Position numbers and translations under genes: made by a program
Notes under the pieces: model-generated
Told to the model about the DNA's origin: nothing
What the model saw: only the letters and a program-made list of their open reading frames with translations
Database searches by the model: none
IMG/VR virus record: IMGVR_UViG_2698536480_000001
Coordinates: 1-32,093 of that record
DNA length: 32,093 bases
Strand: one strand, 5' to 3'
Source of the DNA: a virus
Taxonomy: Duplodnaviria; Heunggongvirae; Uroviricota; Caudoviricetes
Part shown: piece by piece, positions 5,937-30,373 of the stretch
Numbering within the stretch: position 1 is the stretch's first letter
Layout: every line of letters begins with the position of its first letter

Positions 5937-7362
5937 TTTTTATGCGCCGCCCCATAGCATCGAGGCAGAGCAGGCGGTGATTGGTGGATTGCTTCTGGAT
6001 GATGACAGCAGTGAGCGCGTCCAGAAAGTTCTGGCGATGCTGAAGCCCGATTCATTTTACAGCCGACCACACAAAATCCTTTTCGAAGAAATAACCAGAA
6101 TGCACCGGGAGCAAAAGCCAGTAGATGGCCTGACGCTTTTCGATGAACTGGAGCGTAAATCGTTAACGGTGTCTGTTGGCGGTTTTGCTTATATCGCTGA
6201 GATCGCAAAGAACACGCCAAGCGCAGCAAACATCGTTGCCTATGCAATGCAGGTTCGTGAAACCGCAATGGAACGCTACGCCATCAACCGCATGACTGAA
6301 GCGACGGAATTGCTCTATTCCCGCAACGGAATGACTGCGACGCAGAAGTACGAAGCTATTCAGGCGATTTTCACGCAACTGACAGACCATGCAAAAACCG
6401 GATCGCGTCGCGGCCTTCGCTCATTTGGTGAGGTCATGGAAGACTGGGTTAGCGACCTTGAGAAGCGATTTGACCCGTCAGGCGAACAACGAGGAATGAG
6501 CACAGGGATCCCATCGCTGGACAGGATGCTGTCACCGAAAGGTCTGGTGAAAGGCTCTCTGTTTGTCATTGGCGCTCGCCCTAAGATGGGGAAAACGACG
6601 CTATACAGCCAGATGGCAATCAACTGCGCAGTGCATGAGAAAAAGCCCGCTCTGATGTTCAGCCTTGAAATGCCAGGTGATCAGATACTGGAAAAACTGG
6701 TAGGGCAGAAGTCAGGTGTTAACCCGAATATTTTTTACCTTCCGGCGACAAATGACGCTGATGACGGCTATCAGGGTGATTACGATGGTGACTTCAACAG
6801 GGCGATCGAAACAGCTAATCGTTTGAGTGAAATCGACCTGCTTTACATCGACGACACGCCGGGATTATCTCTGGCTCAAATCGTCAGCGAAAGCCGTCGA
6901 ATCAAGCGAGAAAAAGGATGTGTTGGCATGATTCTGGTCGATTACCTGACACTAATGACCGCTGAGAAGGCCGATCGCAACGACCTTGCTTACGGCATGA
7001 TCACCAAAGGACTGAAGAACCTTGCCAAAGAGCTTGATTGCGTTGTTGTGCTTCTGACGCAGCTTAACCGCGCACTGGAAAGCAGAACCAATAAACGCCC
7101 ATTACCAAGTGACTCACGAGATACAGGGCAAATTGAACAGGATTGCGATTATTGGGTGGGGATCCATCGTGAAGGTGCTTTTGATGACAGTGTTCCACCT
7201 GGTGAAACCGAACTAATCCTTCGTCTCAATCGTCATGGCAATACCGGCACGGTGTATTGCATTCAGGCAAATGGCGCTATTTATGACACAGACCAACAGT
7301 CTGCTGAAATGCGCCGCCGTGAACGCGAGGAACCGCAGTCCAAGAAGAAAGGAGGATTCTGA
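5926..7362 (+). CDS. DnaB-family replicative helicase (P22 gene 12-like)
   Basis: 478 aa from the ATG at 5926 (SD GAGGGTG); Walker A GARPKMGKTT and a DnaB-like C-terminal RecA fold; N-terminal IEAEQAVIGGLL motif typical of DnaB. Confidence 0.92.
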   Translation: MTDNFYAPPHSIEAEQAVIGGLLLDDDSSERVQKVLAMLKPDSFYSRPHKILFEEITRMHREQKPVDGLTLFDELERKSLTVSVGGFAYIAEIAKNTPSAANIVAYAMQVRETAMERYAINRMTEATELLYSRNGMTATQKYEAIQAIFTQLTDHAKTGSRRGLRSFGEVMEDWVSDLEKRFDPSGEQRGMSTGIPSLDRMLSPKGLVKGSLFVIGARPKMGKTTLYSQMAINCAVHEKKPALMFSLEMPGDQILEKLVGQKSGVNPNIFYLPATNDADDGYQGDYDGDFNRAIETANRLSEIDLLYIDDTPGLSLAQIVSESRRIKREKGCVGMILVDYLTLMTAEKADRNDLAYGMITKGLKNLAKELDCVVVLLTQLNRALESRTNKRPLPSDSRDTGQIEQDCDYWVGIHREGAFDDSVPPGETELILRLNRHGNTGTVYCIQANGAIYDTDQQSAEMRRREREEPQSKKKGGF

Positions 7363-25316: not shown

Positions 25317-26729
25317 TTGGCTACATGGCAACAGGCTGGTAATTCAGGCGCGCTTCTTGCCGGGTTAGGCGGCATGAACTCCAACGCTCCAAGAGCAAGT
25401 GATGCAGACGCCACGCTTGCATACATTCGACAGAATAACGAGATGGAGCGTTCAGGACGTAATAACGTTGGCTTGCAGGCTTTGCAGGGCATTTCATCTG
25501 TCATGGATATGTATAAGCAGATGGATCAGCAGAATCGACAGCAAGAGTTTCAGCAGGCTTATGCTGATGCATATACATCTGGTGACCGCGATGCAATGCG
25601 AAAACTGGCATCACAGTATCCTGAGCAGTTTGACGTTGTAAGAAACGGCATGAAATTTGTCGATGAAGACCAGCGTTCCACTGTCGGTACACTGGCAGCA
25701 AGTGCCAGACTCGCAGCTTCATCTCCAGAAGCCATGATGTCATGGTTGCAGAACAACTCATCTGAGCTTACTCGTGCCGGAGTAGACCCTCTGGATGTGG
25801 CGAAAATGTATCAGCAAAATCCACAAGGTTTCACAGAGTTTGTTGATCACCTTGGAATGGCTGCTCTTGGTCCGATTGATTACTTCAATGTTCAGGACAA
25901 GATGGCTGGTCGTGAAATTGACCGAGGCAGGCTGGCAGAGACAATCCGCAGCAATCAGGCTGGTGAAGCACTTCAGGCGAGAAGGCAAAACCTTTCCTAT
26001 CAGTCAGCAATGACTGGGCACAATATCGCAGCACAACGCTTGGCTCTGGATCAGCAAGAGTTCGGGTTTAAGATGCAGCAAGCGCAGGAAAAGGCTCAGC
26101 AGTTGATTAGCGAAGCACCTAAGCTGTCAGTAAACATGGAAAAAGGCATCGAGACGGCTGTAAACAATGCCACAGCATCATCAAACTCAGCCAATTCTAT
26201 GAGTGCGCTTGCTCAACAGTTCAGAGCAGAAAAACCAACGACAGGTTTGTTCGGTAACGCACAGAACATGTTCGCAAAACTTACCGGAAGCGATACGACA
26301 TTGCGTGATTTGCGCATTCGCCAAAATGCCCTTGTTAACAGTCAGGTTCTTAAATTCCTACCTCCCGGCCCAGCAACGGATAAAGACGTTGAGATCGTTC
26401 GACAGGGTGCGCCAACTGACATGGATAACCCTGAGACGGTCGCAAGATGGCTTGATGCAATGGCAAACCTTGAGCGACGAAACGCGCAGTTTAATGAGTT
26501 TAAAGCTGAGTGGATGAGCGCGAATGGCAACCCTGGACAATCGCGTAATGGCGGTCAGATATTGGGGTTGGATGTTAAAAAAGGTGAATCATTGGGGAGT
26601 GCCGTTAAGCGGTATATGTCAATGAATACTGACGCAGCACCAGCGCAAGATTCGACACCTTCAGGAGAACCACGGAATCAGGTTGGATCATATACCTCAA
26701 AATCAGGCATTCAATTTACGGTGGAATGA
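25317..26729 (+). CDS. ejection protein (P22 gp20-type)
   Basis: 470 aa (P22 gp20 is 471 aa); TTG start at 25317 with SD GGAGG 6 nt upstream. Confidence 0.85.
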
Positions 26730-28567
26730 TGAAAGTAACTGCAAACGGTAAGACATTTACCTTCCCTGATGGTACGAGCACGGAAGATATTGGATCTGCC
26801 ATTGATGAGTATTTTGCTGGACAGTCTGTTCAGCAACAAACTGTCAGCCAGGATAGCAATGAACCAGCACGTGAAGAACCATCATTGATGCAACAAGCTG
26901 GCGATTGGCTCACTGGTGGTCAAAGTGCAGGGCAAATTGCAGAACAGGCTGGTCGTGGTCTGGTAAACATACCATTTGACGTATTGCAGGGTGGCGCAAG
27001 TCTGATTAATGCAATCAGTCAGGGGCTTGGTGGACCCAAGGTTTTGGATGATGTTTATCGTCCAGTAGACAGACCGACAGACCCCTACGCGCAAGCCGGT
27101 GAAACAATTGGTGGGTATTTAGTTCCAGGAGTTGGAACGGCAGGAAGCATGGCTATTGGCTCACTGGCAGAGGCTGCAAATCAGAAAGGCGATTTCGCAC
27201 AAAATGCAGCAAGAAACGCCGGAGTTAACCTTGCCGCTCAGGGGGTTCTTTCCGCAGCAGCAAAGGGAATAGGGCGTGGAATAACGGCTATAAAAGGTGA
27301 TATTGCGCCAGAAGTGGCGAAGAAAATTGCCACATCAGAATCGATGGGCGTGACACCAATGACATCTGATGTTATCCCGCCGAAAAATGCTTTCACTCGC
27401 GGCCTTACTCAGGATGCCGAGGGGGCTTTGCTCGGGACAGGCTCAAAGAGAGCGGAGCAATATGCAACGCGTAGTAAGCTGGTAAGCAATTATTTTGACC
27501 GTTTTGGTGAGTACAACCCTGATGATGTGGTGAAATCTCTGACCACCACGTTAAGGGGGCGGAAGGATGCCGCTGGCGCTGTTATCAATGACGTCACCAA
27601 TAAAATGGGTAATGCCGCAGTTGATACCACAAATACCATGAATGCTCTGAATACAGCGATCGCAAGACAGGAACGGCTTGGGACTTCAGCCAATCAAAGC
27701 CTGCTTACATCCTTGCGTAACCTACGTGAAGAATTAGCAAACCCTGCAACTGATTTGGATGTTACGTTTGATCTCTTGCGTCAGCACAGAACAGCATTTA
27801 GATCTAATGTTCAGGGAGATTCTATGGTCTTCCCCAACCAGGCAAAAGCAGCTACCAATATGGTAGAGAATGCAATGTCAAAAGACCTTCGTAACGCAGT
27901 TGCAAAAAACCTCGGTGCGTCAGACGCAGCAAAATACCTTAAAGCAAATTCCGATTATGCAAACGTTTATAATAAGGTGCTTAATAAAAACATTGCTAAC
28001 AAGCTCAACAAGGCAAGCAGTGAAGCCAGTCCTGAACTTATAAATACCGTTGTATTAAGCAGAAAGCCATCTGACGTGAAACGAATCTGGAGCGCATTGG
28101 ATGATAAAGGGAAAGATGCTATGCGTGCAGCTTACGTCAGCAAAATAGCGGAAAAGGCCGGTGACTCTCCAGCCAAGTTCATCACTGAAGTTAATAAGCT
28201 TAAATCTCAGTCAGGCGGTGAAATTTACAACACTATTTTTTCTGGAAAGCACATGAAAGAGCTTGATGCTCTTCATGAAGTTCTACAGCAAACAGCAAGG
28301 TCAGACACCGCAAATGTAGTAACTCAGACGGGGCAATCACAAGCCAACAGGATAAGGACGATTGGCGCAACTGCGACTCTTGGAGTATCAATGGGGCTTG
28401 AGGCTGGCTTTGGTGCAATGATGCGTTTGTATGAGTCCAAAGCCGCAAGGAATATGCTTCTTCGTTTGGCAAACACCAAAGCAGGAACACCAGCCTATGA
28501 AAGAGCGCTAAATAACGCTGCGAATGCCATCAGACCGCTGTTTGCTACTGAGGCAACACAGCAGTAA
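26726..28567 (+). CDS. ejection protein (P22 gp16-type)
   Basis: 613 aa (P22 gp16 is 609 aa); last gene of the virion operon before the immI-type region. Confidence 0.85.
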
Positions 28568-28591: not shown

Positions 28592-28981
28592 CTAACATTT
28601 TCTTTTTACTTTTCCAACAAAAGCTTTGGTTGAATCCATATTTCCATAACCGGAAATGGTTTTTGACATTAAAACTGTTCCAGTAGGATGTATTACCCAT
28701 GAGTCGATAACGCGTTGAGTTTCGCCATTCGCGCCGATTCCTATGATGGAGTTTTTAGACAATGCTTTGTAAGCCATGCCGCCCGCATCTGTCCCAGAAT
28801 ATGTGATGCTGGCATCTTCACCGCTTGTCTTAATGATGAATGTTCCACTAAAACCATCTTCTTCCGGATGGAAATTATTTCGTTCTGAATAGCTTATTCC
28901 GCGCATATCTCCAACGACCCAGCACTCTGCTGTAGCCCCAAAAGATATGAATAAGAACATAGCAGCAAGAAATTGCTTCAC
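28592..28981 (-). CDS. secreted (signal-peptide) protein of unknown function at the sieA-equivalent locus
   Basis: GTG start at 28981 with SD AAGGAGG 5 nt upstream (track ATG at 29056 is further upstream); N-terminus MKQFLAAMFLFISFGATA-E looks like a Sec signal peptide; mature protein about 110 aa with Cys near both ends; convergent with gp16. Confidence 0.7.
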   Translation of the reverse strand: MKQFLAAMFLFISFGATAECWVVGDMRGISYSERNNFHPEEDGFSGTFIIKTSGEDASITYSGTDAGGMAYKALSKNSIIGIGANGETQRVIDSWVIHPTGTVLMSKTISGYGNMDSTKAFVGKVKRKC

Positions 28982-29045
28982 ACCAACCTCCTTAGTTTTG
29001 AGCAGGATACCAGATGATAATGTGTAGTTGGAGTAGCGCGGTTGT

Positions 29046-29137
29046 AATGCAAGCATTTTGTTTTAGTTTTATGCTTGCTTGTATGTGTGCACAGTGTATA
29101 TAATGCAAGCATAAATCACAACAAAGGTGCTTGCATT
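29046..29137 (+). promoter_or_regulatory. divergent promoter region with two about 35-bp palindromic operator-like modules
   Basis: AATGCAAGCAT (29046-29056) and inverted copy ATGCTTGCTT (29071-29080); AATGCAAGCAT (29102-29112) and inverted copy GTGCTTGCATT (29127-29137); -35 TTGCTT, 17-18 bp spacer, -10 TATAAT lie between the modules; the second module ends at the start codon of the downstream gene. Confidence 0.5.
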
Positions 29138-30106
29138 ATGACTGAAAAGAAAAGTGGCGAAGGGAAAGCTAAGGGCGGGATCGCTCGCGCAAAGTCGCTG
29201 ACTAAAGAGCAGCGTTCTGAAATAGCAAAGAAAGCAGCTGCTGCAAGATGGAAAAGTAAGATTCTCAGGGCAACTCATCGTGGTAACTTTTTAGATGATT
29301 TTGGCATTGATGCTGAATGTTATGTACTGGATGACGAGTCGAAAACTGTCGTTGTTACGAAAACTGGATTATCTCAGTTGCTAGGGATTGGTGAACATGC
29401 CAGGGATTTAGATCAACTGCTTGGCGCTCAGTATATGAGCAAATACCGAGATCTAGAATTGCAGCGAAAAATGGAAAATCCCTATAAATTTCAACTTACT
29501 TCGAAGTCTAAAACCGTTCATCAAGCGTTAGGTTATGACATTACAGCAATTGTTGATATTGGTAGGGCACTAATAGAAGCCAAAGATAATGACGATCTAC
29601 CACAATCACGGTTAAAGGCAGCCGCCGCAGCACAGAGACTTATTAATGCCTCCGCTAAGGCGGGAATTAAGGGGGTTGCGTATGCGCTTGCTGGTTATCG
29701 TCCAGAAGTTCAGGCTGTCATTGACGAGTTCAAAGCGTTTGTTCGTGAAGAGGCTCGTCAATATGAAAAGGAATTTCCAGATGAGCTATACGAGGAGTGG
29801 TATCGACTGTACGGCCTGAATAGGCCAGAGAAAGGACGGCCTATTCGTTTTGGGCAGCTAACCAACATGCAGATATACACCCCGCTAGCAAAGAGTAAAG
29901 GTAAAATCCTTGAACAGATTCGAGCCAGCCGAGACGAGAACGGAAAACAATCTGATAAGTTGCATCTGTTCCTTTCTGAAATTGGTGTCAAGGCTTTGCG
30001 TCAGCATATCGGTAAGCTTCTTGGGGTCGCAGCGATGAGTGAGACAAGAGAAGAATACGAAAAAGGAATAGAAAAGGTTTTTGGAAGAATGAAACCAGAA
30101 ATCTAA
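29138..30106 (+). CDS. hypothetical 322-aa protein with N-terminal basic helix (possible DNA/RNA-binding), immI-region accessory gene
   Basis: ATG at 29138; N-terminus KKSGEGKAKGGIARAKSLTKEQRSEIAKKAAAARWKSK is strongly basic; remainder mixed charge; followed by a bidirectional terminator shared with mnt. Confidence 0.75.
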   Translation: MTEKKSGEGKAKGGIARAKSLTKEQRSEIAKKAAAARWKSKILRATHRGNFLDDFGIDAECYVLDDESKTVVVTKTGLSQLLGIGEHARDLDQLLGAQYMSKYRDLELQRKMENPYKFQLTSKSKTVHQALGYDITAIVDIGRALIEAKDNDDLPQSRLKAAAAAQRLINASAKAGIKGVAYALAGYRPEVQAVIDEFKAFVREEARQYEKEFPDELYEEWYRLYGLNRPEKGRPIRFGQLTNMQIYTPLAKSKGKILEQIRASRDENGKQSDKLHLFLSEIGVKALRQHIGKLLGVAAMSETREEYEKGIEKVFGRMKPEI

Positions 30107-30110
30107 TTAT

Positions 30111-30137
30111 GAAACCCACCGTCAGGTGGGTTTTTTG
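30111..30137. terminator. bidirectional intrinsic terminator between the 322-aa gene and mnt
   Basis: AAACCCACC-GTCA-GGTGGGTTTTTT; A-run on one side and T-run on the other; the mnt stop codon lies in the loop. Confidence 0.7.
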
Positions 30138-30373
30138 TACAAATCCTTCAGCGTATCAAACACCATCTTCTTAACAAGTTCGGACTGCTCATCAGCGAGT
30201 CGTTCTGCATCGTCGCGATATCCAGTCACAGGCGATGGTTTTGATAGAGCATCTTGGACGATTTGTAACAACTCGGAGTTCATTGATCTCCCATTCGCCT
30301 CCGCCCTGAATTTTAATTTCTCCCTTACTTCCATAGGCATACGGAAGTTAAAGTGCGGATCATCTCTAGCCAT
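30122..30373 (-). CDS. mnt: Mnt repressor (ribbon-helix-helix, P22 immI)
   Basis: 83 aa, near-identical to P22 Mnt as recalled (MARDDPHFNFRMPMEVREKLKFRAEANGRSMNSELLQIVQDAL...). Confidence 0.92.
   Translation of the reverse strand: MARDDPHFNFRMPMEVREKLKFRAEANGRSMNSELLQIVQDALSKPSPVTGYRDDAERLADEQSELVKKMVFDTLKDLYKKPT

What the first reader, a model, noticed from the sequence alone, without database searches (positions are those of the whole stretch)
29138..30106. Second accessory gene in the immI-type island: 322-aa protein with a basic N-terminal helix
It is transcribed divergently from the secreted-protein gene, has its own sigma70-like promoter bracketed by palindromes, and ends at a bidirectional terminator shared with mnt. 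The N-terminus (GGIARAKSLTKEQRSEIAKKAAAARW) looks like a nucleic-acid-binding helix and the rest is a mixed-charge alpha-rich domain. Together with the secreted protein it forms a compact two-gene cassette, bounded by terminators on both sides, in a position known to exchange exclusion genes in P22-like phages. It may be an abortive-infection, exclusion or regulatory function; function unknown.
Basis: partly seen in the sequence, partly recalled or inferred. Interest (0 to 1): 0.6.

Follow-up and report, generated by a model that had tools for sequence, protein, structure and literature searches.

The report
Self-regulated P63C gene cassette in prophage
The 322-aa gene is a real member of the large, uncharacterised P63C protein family that travels with its own built-in promoter and four-site DNA switch, alone in prophages and inside IS1-like jumping genes in many bacterial phyla, and it is not tied to the neighbouring secreted-protein gene.

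Summary
The ORF (29138-30106, +, 322 aa), its promoter, the palindromes and the terminator are all present.

The "two-gene cassette" reading fails. The P63C gene and the minus-strand secreted-protein gene occur independently in relatives.

What always travels with the gene is a four-site array, ATGCAAGCAT / ATGCTTGCAT (29047-29136).
- Site 2 contains the -35.
- Site 3 abuts the -10.
- Site 4 fills the space between the Shine-Dalgarno sequence and the ATG.
- I found 91 non-identical copies of this array upstream of homologues (27-100% identity) in Proteobacteria, Acidobacteriota, Myxococcota, Firmicutes and phages.

In about a third to a half of the cellular loci sampled, the array lies between the P63C gene and a divergent IS1-like transposase, inside 2.3-2.8 kb elements with inverted repeats and 8-9 bp target duplications. 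In phages the cassette stands alone in accessory-gene slots: the sieA slot, downstream of cI, and tail-gene morons.

Most likely it is an autoregulated DNA-binding protein. It has a conserved basic N-terminal motif, a hypervariable middle domain and a conserved P63C domain. Its effector role is unproven; defence or exclusion is the leading guess.

The parts
29047..29056 (+). Operator site 1, ATGCAAGCAT
   Evidence: Exact match. The position is conserved in 91 non-identical arrays, with about 2 bits per position over TGCAAGCA. In IS-borne relatives its complement holds the -35 (TTGCAT) of the divergent transposase promoter.
29071..29080 (-). Operator site 2, ATGCTTGCTT on the + strand. It contains the -35 hexamer TTGCTT (29075-29080).
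   Evidence: The core-to-core spacing between sites 2 and 3 is 31-32 nt in most arrays, which gives a 17-18 nt promoter spacer.
29099..29104 (+). -10 hexamer TATAAT, overlapping the first two bases of site 3
   Evidence: Read from the sequence. A TAnaAT consensus is fused to site 3 across the arrays.
29103..29112 (+). Operator site 3, ATGCAAGCAT
   Evidence: Also conserved in the siphovirus-type prophage L012 and upstream of ST104 orf23, whose protein is only 29% identical.
29127..29136 (-). Operator site 4, GTGCTTGCAT on the + strand, lying between the Shine-Dalgarno sequence (AAAGG, 29123-29127) and the ATG
   Evidence: The start codon lies 6-9 nt after the core in all 91 arrays and is often inside the site (TGCTTGCATG).
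29138..29251 (+). Codons 1-38: the basic N-terminal motif, GKAKGGIARAKSLTKEQRSEIAKKAAAARW
   Evidence: G13, G14, R17, R37 and W38 are invariant. Predicted helices 11-20 and 23-38. About 98% nucleotide identity together with the array between alleles whose remaining sequence is 40-65% identical. The same motif ends 57-75 aa stand-alone proteins, including the third gene of the IS elements.
29252..29731 (+). Codons 39-198: middle alpha/beta domain, the most variable and most recombined module
29732..30106 (+). Codons 199-322 plus the stop codon: helical C-terminal region containing the P63C domain (aa 199-286)
   Evidence: Pfam PF10546, E 6.8e-14, 52.7 bits against a cut-off of 26.1. It falls into two allele groups, at least 86% or about 55-63% identical to the window.
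30112..30136 (.). Hairpin AAACCCACC-GTCA-GGTGGGTTT followed by a T-run: terminator of the P63C gene, overlapping the 3' end of mnt
   Evidence: A homologous terminator is annotated in epsilon34. This segment is shared at 95-98% identity with P22-like phages that carry other cargo.

Best explanation
The feature is a self-contained mobile cassette of about 1.06 kb, 29047-30106, plus the slot's terminator. It consists of a sigma70 promoter embedded in a four-site operator array, followed by a gene for a three-module protein: a basic N-terminal DNA-binding motif, a variable middle domain, and a P63C domain.

Inferred mechanism: the protein binds the ATGCAAGCAT sites. Sites 2 and 3 cover the -35 and the transcription start region. 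Site 4 covers the ribosome-binding spacer and start codon. Site 1 provides cooperativity. In this way the protein would hold its own synthesis at a low, constant level in the lysogen.

The cassette comes from, or is shared with, IS1-family insertion sequences. There the same array lies between back-to-back promoters for the transposase and the P63C gene, so the protein would repress both. In this P22-like prophage only the array and the gene were captured, as a moron in the gene16-mnt accessory slot. It is independent of the neighbouring secreted-protein gene.

Shown: the anatomy, the conservation, the contexts, purifying selection and the modular mosaicism. Inferred: DNA binding, autorepression, and which module reads the sites. 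The benefit to the phage is not established; the hypervariable middle domain and the slots the gene occupies point to defence or exclusion.
For: 1. The array travels with the gene.
- It is absent when the slot holds other cargo (epsilon34, Emek).
- It is present with the gene in P22-like prophages, a siphovirus-type prophage, lambda-like tail slots, downstream of cI in ST104 at only 29% protein identity, and in Acidobacteriota, Myxococcota, Firmicutes and all proteobacterial classes.
- 91 non-identical arrays share about 2 bits per position over 8 bp of each site, with about 0 bits in the spacers and fixed spacings of 22-25 / 30-33 / 22-25 nt.

2. The P63C protein is the only gene product common to every context. 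The transposase and the small IS gene are absent from the phage loci and from the window. A host factor would have to be conserved across phyla.

3. The sites overlap the -35, the -10 and start region, and the Shine-Dalgarno-ATG spacer. On the transposase side, the -35 lies in site 1 and a -10 lies 17 nt further on.

4. Flanking positions of paired sites do not covary, and pairing does not extend beyond the 10-mers. No Rfam family matches. This favours protein-binding sites over a selected hairpin.

5. A reverse search of viral contigs for one site pair returned 76 loci. 48 are next to P63C-family genes. About 20 are one repeated coding-sequence coincidence. About 8 are singletons, near my rough chance expectation of about 7, which assumes a collection of about 1e11 bases.

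6. The array plus the first 34 codons are inherited as one block at 98% identity while the rest of the gene is swapped. The four homologues that lack the N-motif (L083, L084, L092, L095) lack the array. Subfamilies with altered N-motifs have altered but related sites.

7. The gene is under purifying selection: dN/dS is 0.20-0.27. The family has 3074 clusters at 50% identity.

8. IS membership of relatives: an IS1-like transposase, GGTAGTGGGTCAGTTTGAA inverted repeats around both genes, and 8-9 bp target duplications.
Against: - Stand-alone proteins with the same basic motif in two IS1-like loci have no ATGCAAGCAT sites nearby. The motif alone may therefore not specify this sequence.
- A natural variant (L007/L008, seen in at least 11 contigs) has lost site 2 and the promoter through a deletion between sites 1 and 3, yet keeps an intact gene. 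Tight autoregulation is therefore not indispensable.
- No transcription start or expression data were available.
- Autoregulation explains the control of the gene, not what the gene is for.
Confidence: 0.6

Rival explanations
1. Prophage- or IS-borne anti-phage defence or exclusion protein of the BstA type. A DNA-binding protein expressed in the lysogen recognises invading or replicating phage through its variable middle domain and blocks it through the P63C domain. The DNA array at the start of the gene doubles as a regulatory or self-immunity element. This concerns the effector role and is compatible with autoregulation.
For: - It occupies known defence slots. One is the sieA slot between gene 16 and mnt; relatives carry Pfam SIEA there (PMC10883804).
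- In ST104 and about 20 P22-like Salmonella phage records, a distant homologue lies directly downstream of cI. That is where bstA lies in BTP1 (PMC8585504).
- The middle domain is hypervariable and swapped between conserved flanks, as expected of a target-recognition module in an arms race.
Against: - No hit to any PADLOC model, including BstA, at E up to 1.
- There is no phenotype data.
- The array is nearly universal across the family, whereas BstA has cognate, allele-specific aba elements.
- About a third to a half of the cellular copies sampled are IS passengers rather than residents of prophages or defence islands.
- The 933W homologue sits in the nin region, which is not a slot expressed in the lysogen.
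Confidence: 0.3
2. Two-gene cassette with the divergent secreted-protein gene. The two products act together, for example an exclusion protein plus its regulator.
For: They are adjacent and divergent in the window and share a 156-bp control region.
Against: - The genes separate freely in relatives: P63C occurs with a 134-aa gene, with SieA, with a 161-aa gene or with none, while the secreted-protein gene occurs with unrelated plus-strand cargo.
- The junction between them is a conserved linker (28984-29013) shared by phages with other cargo.
Confidence: 0.04
3. The four sites are not operators for the P63C protein. They are either a structured RNA or DNA element (hairpins sequestering the ribosome-binding site) or sites for another factor: a host protein, or in the IS elements the transposase or the small protein.
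For: - Sites 1/2 and 3/4 are inverted repeats that could form hairpins.
- Weak generic hairpin (miRNA-like) Rfam matches reflect this.
- In the IS elements, two other element-encoded DNA-binding candidates exist.
Against: - Sequence, not pairing, is conserved. There is no covariation, and no extension of the stems.
- Site 3 lies at or upstream of the expected transcription start.
- The array is just as well conserved in phages that lack the transposase and the small protein.
- A host factor would need the same specificity in at least five phyla.
Confidence: 0.1
4. Antirepressor-like protein-protein regulator. Like the neighbouring Ant (Bro-N + P22_AR_C), it would bind and inactivate repressors or other regulators of competing or resident phages.
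For: - Weak BFVD fold matches of the middle domain to AntA-N and Bro-N models.
- Recurrent neighbourhood with antirepressor modules: mnt-arc-ant, S24 repressor + ORF6N, and roi in 933W.
- From my own knowledge (paper not retrievable): the P63C domain was defined by Iyer et al. 2002 within the KilA-N/Bro-N domain-shuffling network.
Against: - No Pfam Bro-N or KilA-N hit, even at E up to 1.
- Fold matches are below significance.
- The IS context has no repressor to antagonise.
- The neighbourhood may only reflect shared moron hot-spots.
Confidence: 0.1
5. Functionless remnant of an IS1-like insertion into the immI region. The transposase and small gene were lost, and P63C persists only as selfish baggage.
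For: - IS-borne relatives exist.
- The window has no transposase, inverted repeat or small gene.
- A promoter-deletion variant exists.
Against: - Intact reading frames under purifying selection in phage contexts, with dN/dS 0.20-0.27.
- The stand-alone cassette is found in many unrelated phage types and slots, with the array conserved.
- No IS scars flank it.
Confidence: 0.08

Closest known systems
Pfam PF10546 (P63C domain) / PHROG 2384 / RefSeq 'P63C domain-containing protein'
   Same: Passes the Pfam gathering threshold. Aligns over the full length to PHROG 2384. It is 100% identical at DNA level to an annotated gene in E. coli ECONIH6.
   Different: The family has no assigned function. Neither the upstream four-site array nor the IS1-like association was described in any paper I could search.
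BstA-aba prophage defence (Salmonella phage BTP1; PMC8585504)
   Same: A prophage accessory gene with its own terminator. An N-terminal DNA-binding-type region plus a second domain. A functional DNA element straddling the gene start. A distant homologue occupies the same downstream-of-cI slot.
   Different: No sequence similarity (PADLOC). No KilA-N hit. The array is family-wide rather than allele-specific. The defence phenotype is untested.
P22 SieA and other occupants of the gene16-mnt slot
   Same: Same genomic slot and the same moron logic: own promoter, with a terminator shared with mnt (PMC10883804).
   Different: SieA is an inner-membrane protein encoded on the other strand. The P63C protein matches no SIEA model and was modelled as a soluble, mostly helical protein.
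Classical autoregulated repressor-operator units with divergent promoters (for example the Tn10 tetR-tetA control region; IS1 InsA repression of the IS1 promoter)
   Same: Palindromic sites overlapping the -35, the -10 and the start site. In the IS relatives, back-to-back promoters for the regulator and a second gene.
   Different: A different protein fold and different sites. There are four sites including one over the start codon. The regulator carries about 280 further residues of unknown function. The comparison with TetR and InsA rests on my own knowledge.
IS1-family insertion sequences
   Same: Relatives lie in elements with a transposase whose best match is the IS1 family, GGTAGTG... 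terminal inverted repeats and 8-9 bp target duplications.
   Different: The transposase is below NCBIfam's IS1 cut-off (62.7 against 100 bits). The elements carry two extra genes (P63C and a 72-75 aa basic protein). None of these IS features is present in the window.

Membership tests
Pfam P63C (PF10546) | HMM score above the curated gathering threshold | tested here: met
   52.7 bits against a cut-off of 26.1, E 6.8e-14, aa 199-286.
PHROG 2384 | Full-length profile match | tested here: met
   E 1.7e-104, aa 6-321 against profile positions 4-328 of 338.
BstA defence family | Match to BstA models in PADLOC | tested here: not met
   No PADLOC family at E up to 1.
BstA defence family | N-terminal KilA-N(-like) domain | tested here: not met
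BstA defence family | Abortive-infection phenotype and suppression by a cognate DNA element | not testable with these tools
   Needs phage challenge and titration experiments.
Bro-N / Ant-type antirepressors | Bro-N (PF02498) or AntA (PF08346) domain | tested here: inconclusive
   No Pfam hit. Foldseek against BFVD gives only weak matches: AntA-N with E 0.06 and target TM-score 0.50, and Bro-N with target TM-score 0.41-0.54.
SieA superinfection exclusion | Pfam SIEA (PF26849) match / inner-membrane protein | tested here: not met
   Only the P63C family was found. The AlphaFold model is a soluble, mostly helical protein. Transmembrane segments were not predicted with a dedicated tool.
IS1-family insertion sequence (as a part of one) | Transposase, terminal inverted repeats and target-site duplication flanking the gene | tested here: not met
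   In the window, tblastn with two IS1-like transposases and the small protein, plus a search for the inverted repeat with up to 5 mismatches, found nothing. These features are met in relatives L025, L029, L040, L046 and L070; L042, L049 and L063 have matching inverted repeats but no duplication was found or checked.
Two-gene operon, cassette or toxin-antitoxin pair with the 154/129-aa neighbour | Consistent co-occurrence of the two genes | tested here: not met
   The two genes are distributed independently.
Autoregulated repressor-operator unit | Conserved palindromic sites overlapping the gene's own promoter and start | tested here: met
   Four sites over the -35, the -10 and start region, and the Shine-Dalgarno-ATG spacer. 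Conserved in 91 arrays.
Autoregulated repressor-operator unit | The gene product binds the sites and represses transcription | not testable with these tools
   Inferred only from co-inheritance and from the absence of any other shared factor.

The most novel reading that the evidence does not exclude
P63C proteins would be a new, phylum-spanning class of mobile-element effector controlled by a DNA element. A universal four-site array would serve both as the operator and as a cis or trans 'self' signal. The swappable middle domain would sense a variable target such as an invading phage or a rival element. The P63C domain would execute a block. IS1-like elements would carry the system to regulate or protect themselves, and temperate phages would have domesticated it repeatedly as a BstA-like defence in their sieA and rex-type slots.
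Probability: 0.22. Interest if true: 0.75.

Novelty: new member of a known kind. Interest (0 to 1): 0.5.

Why it matters
P63C is a large protein family: 3074 clusters at 50% identity. It is found in temperate phages, including Stx phage 933W and many Salmonella P22-like phages, and in bacteria of many phyla, and it has no known function.

This analysis supplies a concrete, testable handle. The family has a 10-bp recognition sequence, a fixed four-site promoter architecture and a three-module protein plan. It is linked to IS1-like transposons on one side and to classical prophage defence slots on the other.

If the protein binds these sites, the family gains a first biochemical activity. The variable middle domain then becomes an obvious candidate for target specificity, whether in defence, exclusion or control of transposition.

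The accessory slot is filled by independently exchangeable single-gene modules joined at a conserved linker, not by a two-gene cassette.

Tried and rejected
- PADLOC and NCBIfam scans of the protein found nothing.
- A sequence search of the PDB found nothing.
- Foldseek against AFDB50 was unavailable.
- BFVD gave only weak Bro-N and AntA-like hits.
- Rfam gave only sub-threshold hairpin-like matches.
- The consensus promoter and terminator scanner missed both the promoter and the terminator. I read both from the sequence.
- Literature searches for P63C, ISMhu11 and IS1 passenger genes returned nothing useful. The Iyer et al. 2002 paper that defined the domain could not be retrieved.
- I tested whether the basic N-motif alone predicts ATGCAAGCAT sites by looking upstream of stand-alone motif proteins. 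It does not.
- L115, which looked like a natural split of the N-motif from the rest of the protein, is only an IS3-type insertion into the gene.
- The hairpin or riboswitch-like reading of the sites was rejected for lack of covariation.
- The longer TTG start at 29075 (343 aa) was rejected. It lies inside the promoter, and all homologues start right after site 4.

Full report
**1. What is in the window**

The window is most of a P22-like prophage. Over the stretch tested (28982-30136) it is 100% identical to the chromosome of E. coli ECONIH6. Around the finding the gene order is:
- a gp16-type ejection protein (26726-28567, +);
- a minus-strand ORF (28592-29056);
- the 322-aa ORF (29138-30106, +);
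- mnt (30122-30373, -), arc and ant.

The minus-strand gene most likely starts at GTG 28981, behind an AAGGAGG Shine-Dalgarno sequence. That gives a 129-aa protein with a signal peptide. I read this; it is the same length as its homologue orf129 in phage Emek and belongs to PHROG 2651.

**2. Identity of the protein**

- The whole protein matches PHROG 2384, a family of unknown function, at E 1.7e-104.
- PADLOC, NCBIfam and PDB sequence searches find nothing.
- The family is large and uniform. There are 1682 homologues in the word-indexed search, nearly all about 320 aa. A full HMM scan finds 3074 clusters at 50% identity.
- RefSeq annotates it only as 'P63C domain-containing protein'. About 46 of 5426 complete E. 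coli genomes carry it.
- I found no paper on its function.

**3. The two-gene cassette does not hold**

- In Escherichia phage vB_EcoP-611R6 the same P63C gene (98.7% nucleotide identity) sits beside a different 134-aa minus-strand gene.
- Salmonella phages Emek and ST-35 have the secreted-protein gene but different plus-strand cargo.
- Epsilon34 shares only the linker and the terminator/mnt end.
- Other prophages pair P63C homologues with SieA (Pfam SIEA), with a 161-aa protein, or with no minus-strand gene.
- A 61%-identical homologue lies in a siphovirus-type prophage, between a tail chaperone gene and an S24 repressor/ORF6N module.

The slot is nevertheless a real accessory slot, where P22 keeps sieA (PMC10883804).

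**4. What does travel with the gene: a four-site array**

The 156-bp control region holds four copies of a near-palindromic 10-mer:
- ATGCAAGCAT at 29047-56;
- its complement-type copy ATGCTTGCTT at 29071-80;
- ATGCAAGCAT at 29103-12;
- GTGCTTGCAT at 29127-36.

The -35 (TTGCTT, 29075-80) lies inside site 2. The -10 (TATAAT, 29099-104) overlaps the first two bases of site 3. Site 4 fills the space between the Shine-Dalgarno sequence and the ATG.

The array is absent where the slot holds other cargo. It is present, with diverged spacers, in front of the siphovirus-type homologue.

A scan of one genome per species returned 80 loci with full-length homologues at 42-76% identity. They come from Acidobacteriota, Myxococcota, all proteobacterial classes, Oscillospiraceae, Heliobacteriaceae, Abditibacteriaceae and Chloroflexi. 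Most have the same plus-minus-plus-minus array.

Pooling all loci gave 91 non-identical arrays:
- each site carries about 2 bits per position over TGCAAGCA, and the flanks carry about 0 bits;
- core-to-core spacings are 22-25, 30-33 and 22-25 nt;
- a TAnaAT hexamer is fused to site 3;
- TTGCAT or TTGCAA lies within site 2, which gives a 17-18 nt promoter spacer;
- the start codon lies 6-9 nt after core 4.

Even ST104 orf23, only 29% identical in protein, has the array.

The reverse test was to search viral contigs for one site pair, which returned 76 loci:
- 48 lie next to P63C-family genes;
- about 20 are one repeated coding-sequence coincidence in an 88-kb phage group;
- about 8 are singletons, close to my rough chance expectation.

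**5. Operators rather than hairpins**

- Positions flanking the paired sites do not covary, and complementarity stops at the 10-mer edges.
- Site 3 sits at or upstream of the expected transcription start.
- Rfam has no matching family.
- So it is sequence, not pairing, that is conserved, as expected of protein-binding sites.
- The only product encoded in every context is the P63C protein itself. This is the basis for inferring autoregulation. The inference is not demonstrated.

**6. Link to IS1-like elements**

In 38 of 79 genome loci (26 of the 90 pooled non-identical arrays outside the window), the array separates the P63C gene from a divergent transposase of about 290-300 aa. Its best matches are the IS1 family:
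- Pfam DDE_Tnp_IS1, above the gathering threshold;
- NCBIfam IS1, E 4.5e-17, but below the curated cut-off.

IS1-like inverted repeats (GGTAGTGGGTCAGTTTGAA) flank both genes. In L025, L029, L040, L046 and L070 there are 6-9 bp target duplications, and the elements are 2.3-2.76 kb long.

On the transposase side, site 1 supplies a -35 (TTGCAT). A CATAAT- or TATACT-type -10 follows 17 nt later. In many elements the ATG follows about 7 nt after that. The array therefore sits on two back-to-back promoters.

These elements have a third gene. It encodes a 72-75 aa protein, convergent with P63C, and its C-terminus carries the same basic motif as the P63C N-terminus. Similar stand-alone proteins occur elsewhere in IS1-like loci.

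None of this — transposase, inverted repeats or small gene — is present in the window or in the phage loci.

**7. Protein architecture**

- AlphaFold gives low- to moderate-confidence N-terminal helices (residues 11-38), a well-predicted alpha/beta middle domain, and a helical C-terminal region.
- BFVD gives weak but recurrent Bro-N and AntA-N matches.
- The gene is a mosaic. Against L011, the linker, the array and the first 34 codons are about 98% identical, and the rest is 40-65% identical. Against L006 and L009, both flanks are 95-100% identical while the middle domain is 37-75% identical.
- Across 57 homologues the middle domain is the most variable module and assorts independently of the C-terminal domain.
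- dN/dS is 0.20-0.27.
- The four homologues that lack the N-motif also lack the array. Subfamilies with altered N-motifs (an acidobacterial group; the 933W type) have altered but related sites.
- I therefore assign site reading tentatively to the N-terminal motif, and target specificity of unknown kind to the middle domain.

**8. Function**

- Control of the gene is reasonably explained by autoregulation. What the gene is for is not explained.
- In phages the stand-alone cassette occupies typical accessory-gene positions:
  - the sieA slot (here);
  - directly downstream of cI in ST104 and about 20 Salmonella phage records, which is the slot that holds bstA in BTP1 (PMC8585504);
  - lambda-like tail-gene moron sites;
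  - the nin region beside roi in 933W.
- Together with the hypervariable middle domain, this makes a defence or exclusion role the leading guess. There is no similarity to known defence models and no phenotype.
- Alternatives are an antirepressor-like regulator or, in the IS elements, a regulator of transposition.

**9. Verdict**

- The two-gene interpretation is wrong.
- The gene is an ordinary member of a known but uncharacterised family.
- The family-wide operator array, the modular mosaic and the IS1-like association appear undescribed in the literature I could search. They make the family directly testable.

Noticed in passing
window 28984-29013 (also L003, L002, L177 3810-3832): A conserved linker, ACCAACCTCCTTAGTTTTGAGCAGGATACCA, forms the Shine-Dalgarno sequence and leader of whatever minus-strand gene fills the slot. 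It is shared by phages with unrelated cargo (epsilon34, Emek). A near-identical TTAGTTTTGAGCAGAATACCA precedes the P63C homologue in the nin region of Stx phage 933W. It looks like a boundary sequence for module exchange.
   Followed up: partly
window 28592-29056 (-): The 'secreted protein' ORF probably starts at GTG 28981, not ATG 29056, because an AAGGAGG lies 5 nt upstream. That gives 129 aa with a cleavable signal peptide (…FGATA|ECW). It belongs to PHROG 2651 (function unknown); its Emek homologue orf129 is annotated as similar to Sf6 gene 38. It sits where SieA lies in other P22-like prophages, so it may be an alternative periplasmic exclusion factor.
   Followed up: partly
L007 and L008, about 5950-6000: A natural variant, seen in at least 11 contigs, has a 56-bp deletion between the direct repeats TAATGCAAGCAT of sites 1 and 3. 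The deletion removes site 2 and the -35 and -10 hexamers, yet the P63C reading frame is intact.
   Followed up: no
L029 4036-6561, L040 777-3534, L070 3671-6306, L025 3972-6276, L046 3592-6277: Three-gene IS1-like elements in environmental bacteria. Their order is: inverted repeat, transposase (leftward), four-site array, P63C gene (rightward), a 72-75 aa basic protein (leftward), inverted repeat. They have 8-9 bp target duplications (for example AAGACCCG, AACTTTTT). I found no description of them in the searchable literature.
   Followed up: yes
L177 3880-3925 (phage 933W, upstream of L0095): The 27%-identical P63C homologue of 933W has a variant site set (ACGTGCAT / TGCACGT) in place of ATGCAAGCAT, and a variant N-terminal motif (…KARAAKMTAEQRKESSRKAV…). 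Acidobacterial homologues likewise have TATACTTGCYCGRG / CTCGGGCAAGTATA sites (L034, L038, L044 and others).
   Followed up: partly
L101, L103, L109, L122 and others (88-kb viral contigs): The pattern TGCAAGCAT-N16-ATGCTTGCA also occurs inside a conserved coding sequence (…ATLASIGGKEIMLAKDPK…) of a group of about 88-kb phages. This looks like a coincidence multiplied by relatedness. It is a caution for motif-only searches.
   Followed up: partly
window 30112-30136 and 30122-30124: The stop codon of mnt lies in the loop of the terminator hairpin that ends the P63C gene. The hairpin has a clear T-run only in the plus direction, so 'bidirectional' is plausible but asymmetric.
   Followed up: no
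L115 4148-5268: In one viral contig the P63C gene is split directly after the N-terminal motif by an IS3-type insertion (orfA and orfB with an rve domain). This leaves a 42-aa N-motif ORF behind the array.
   Followed up: yes
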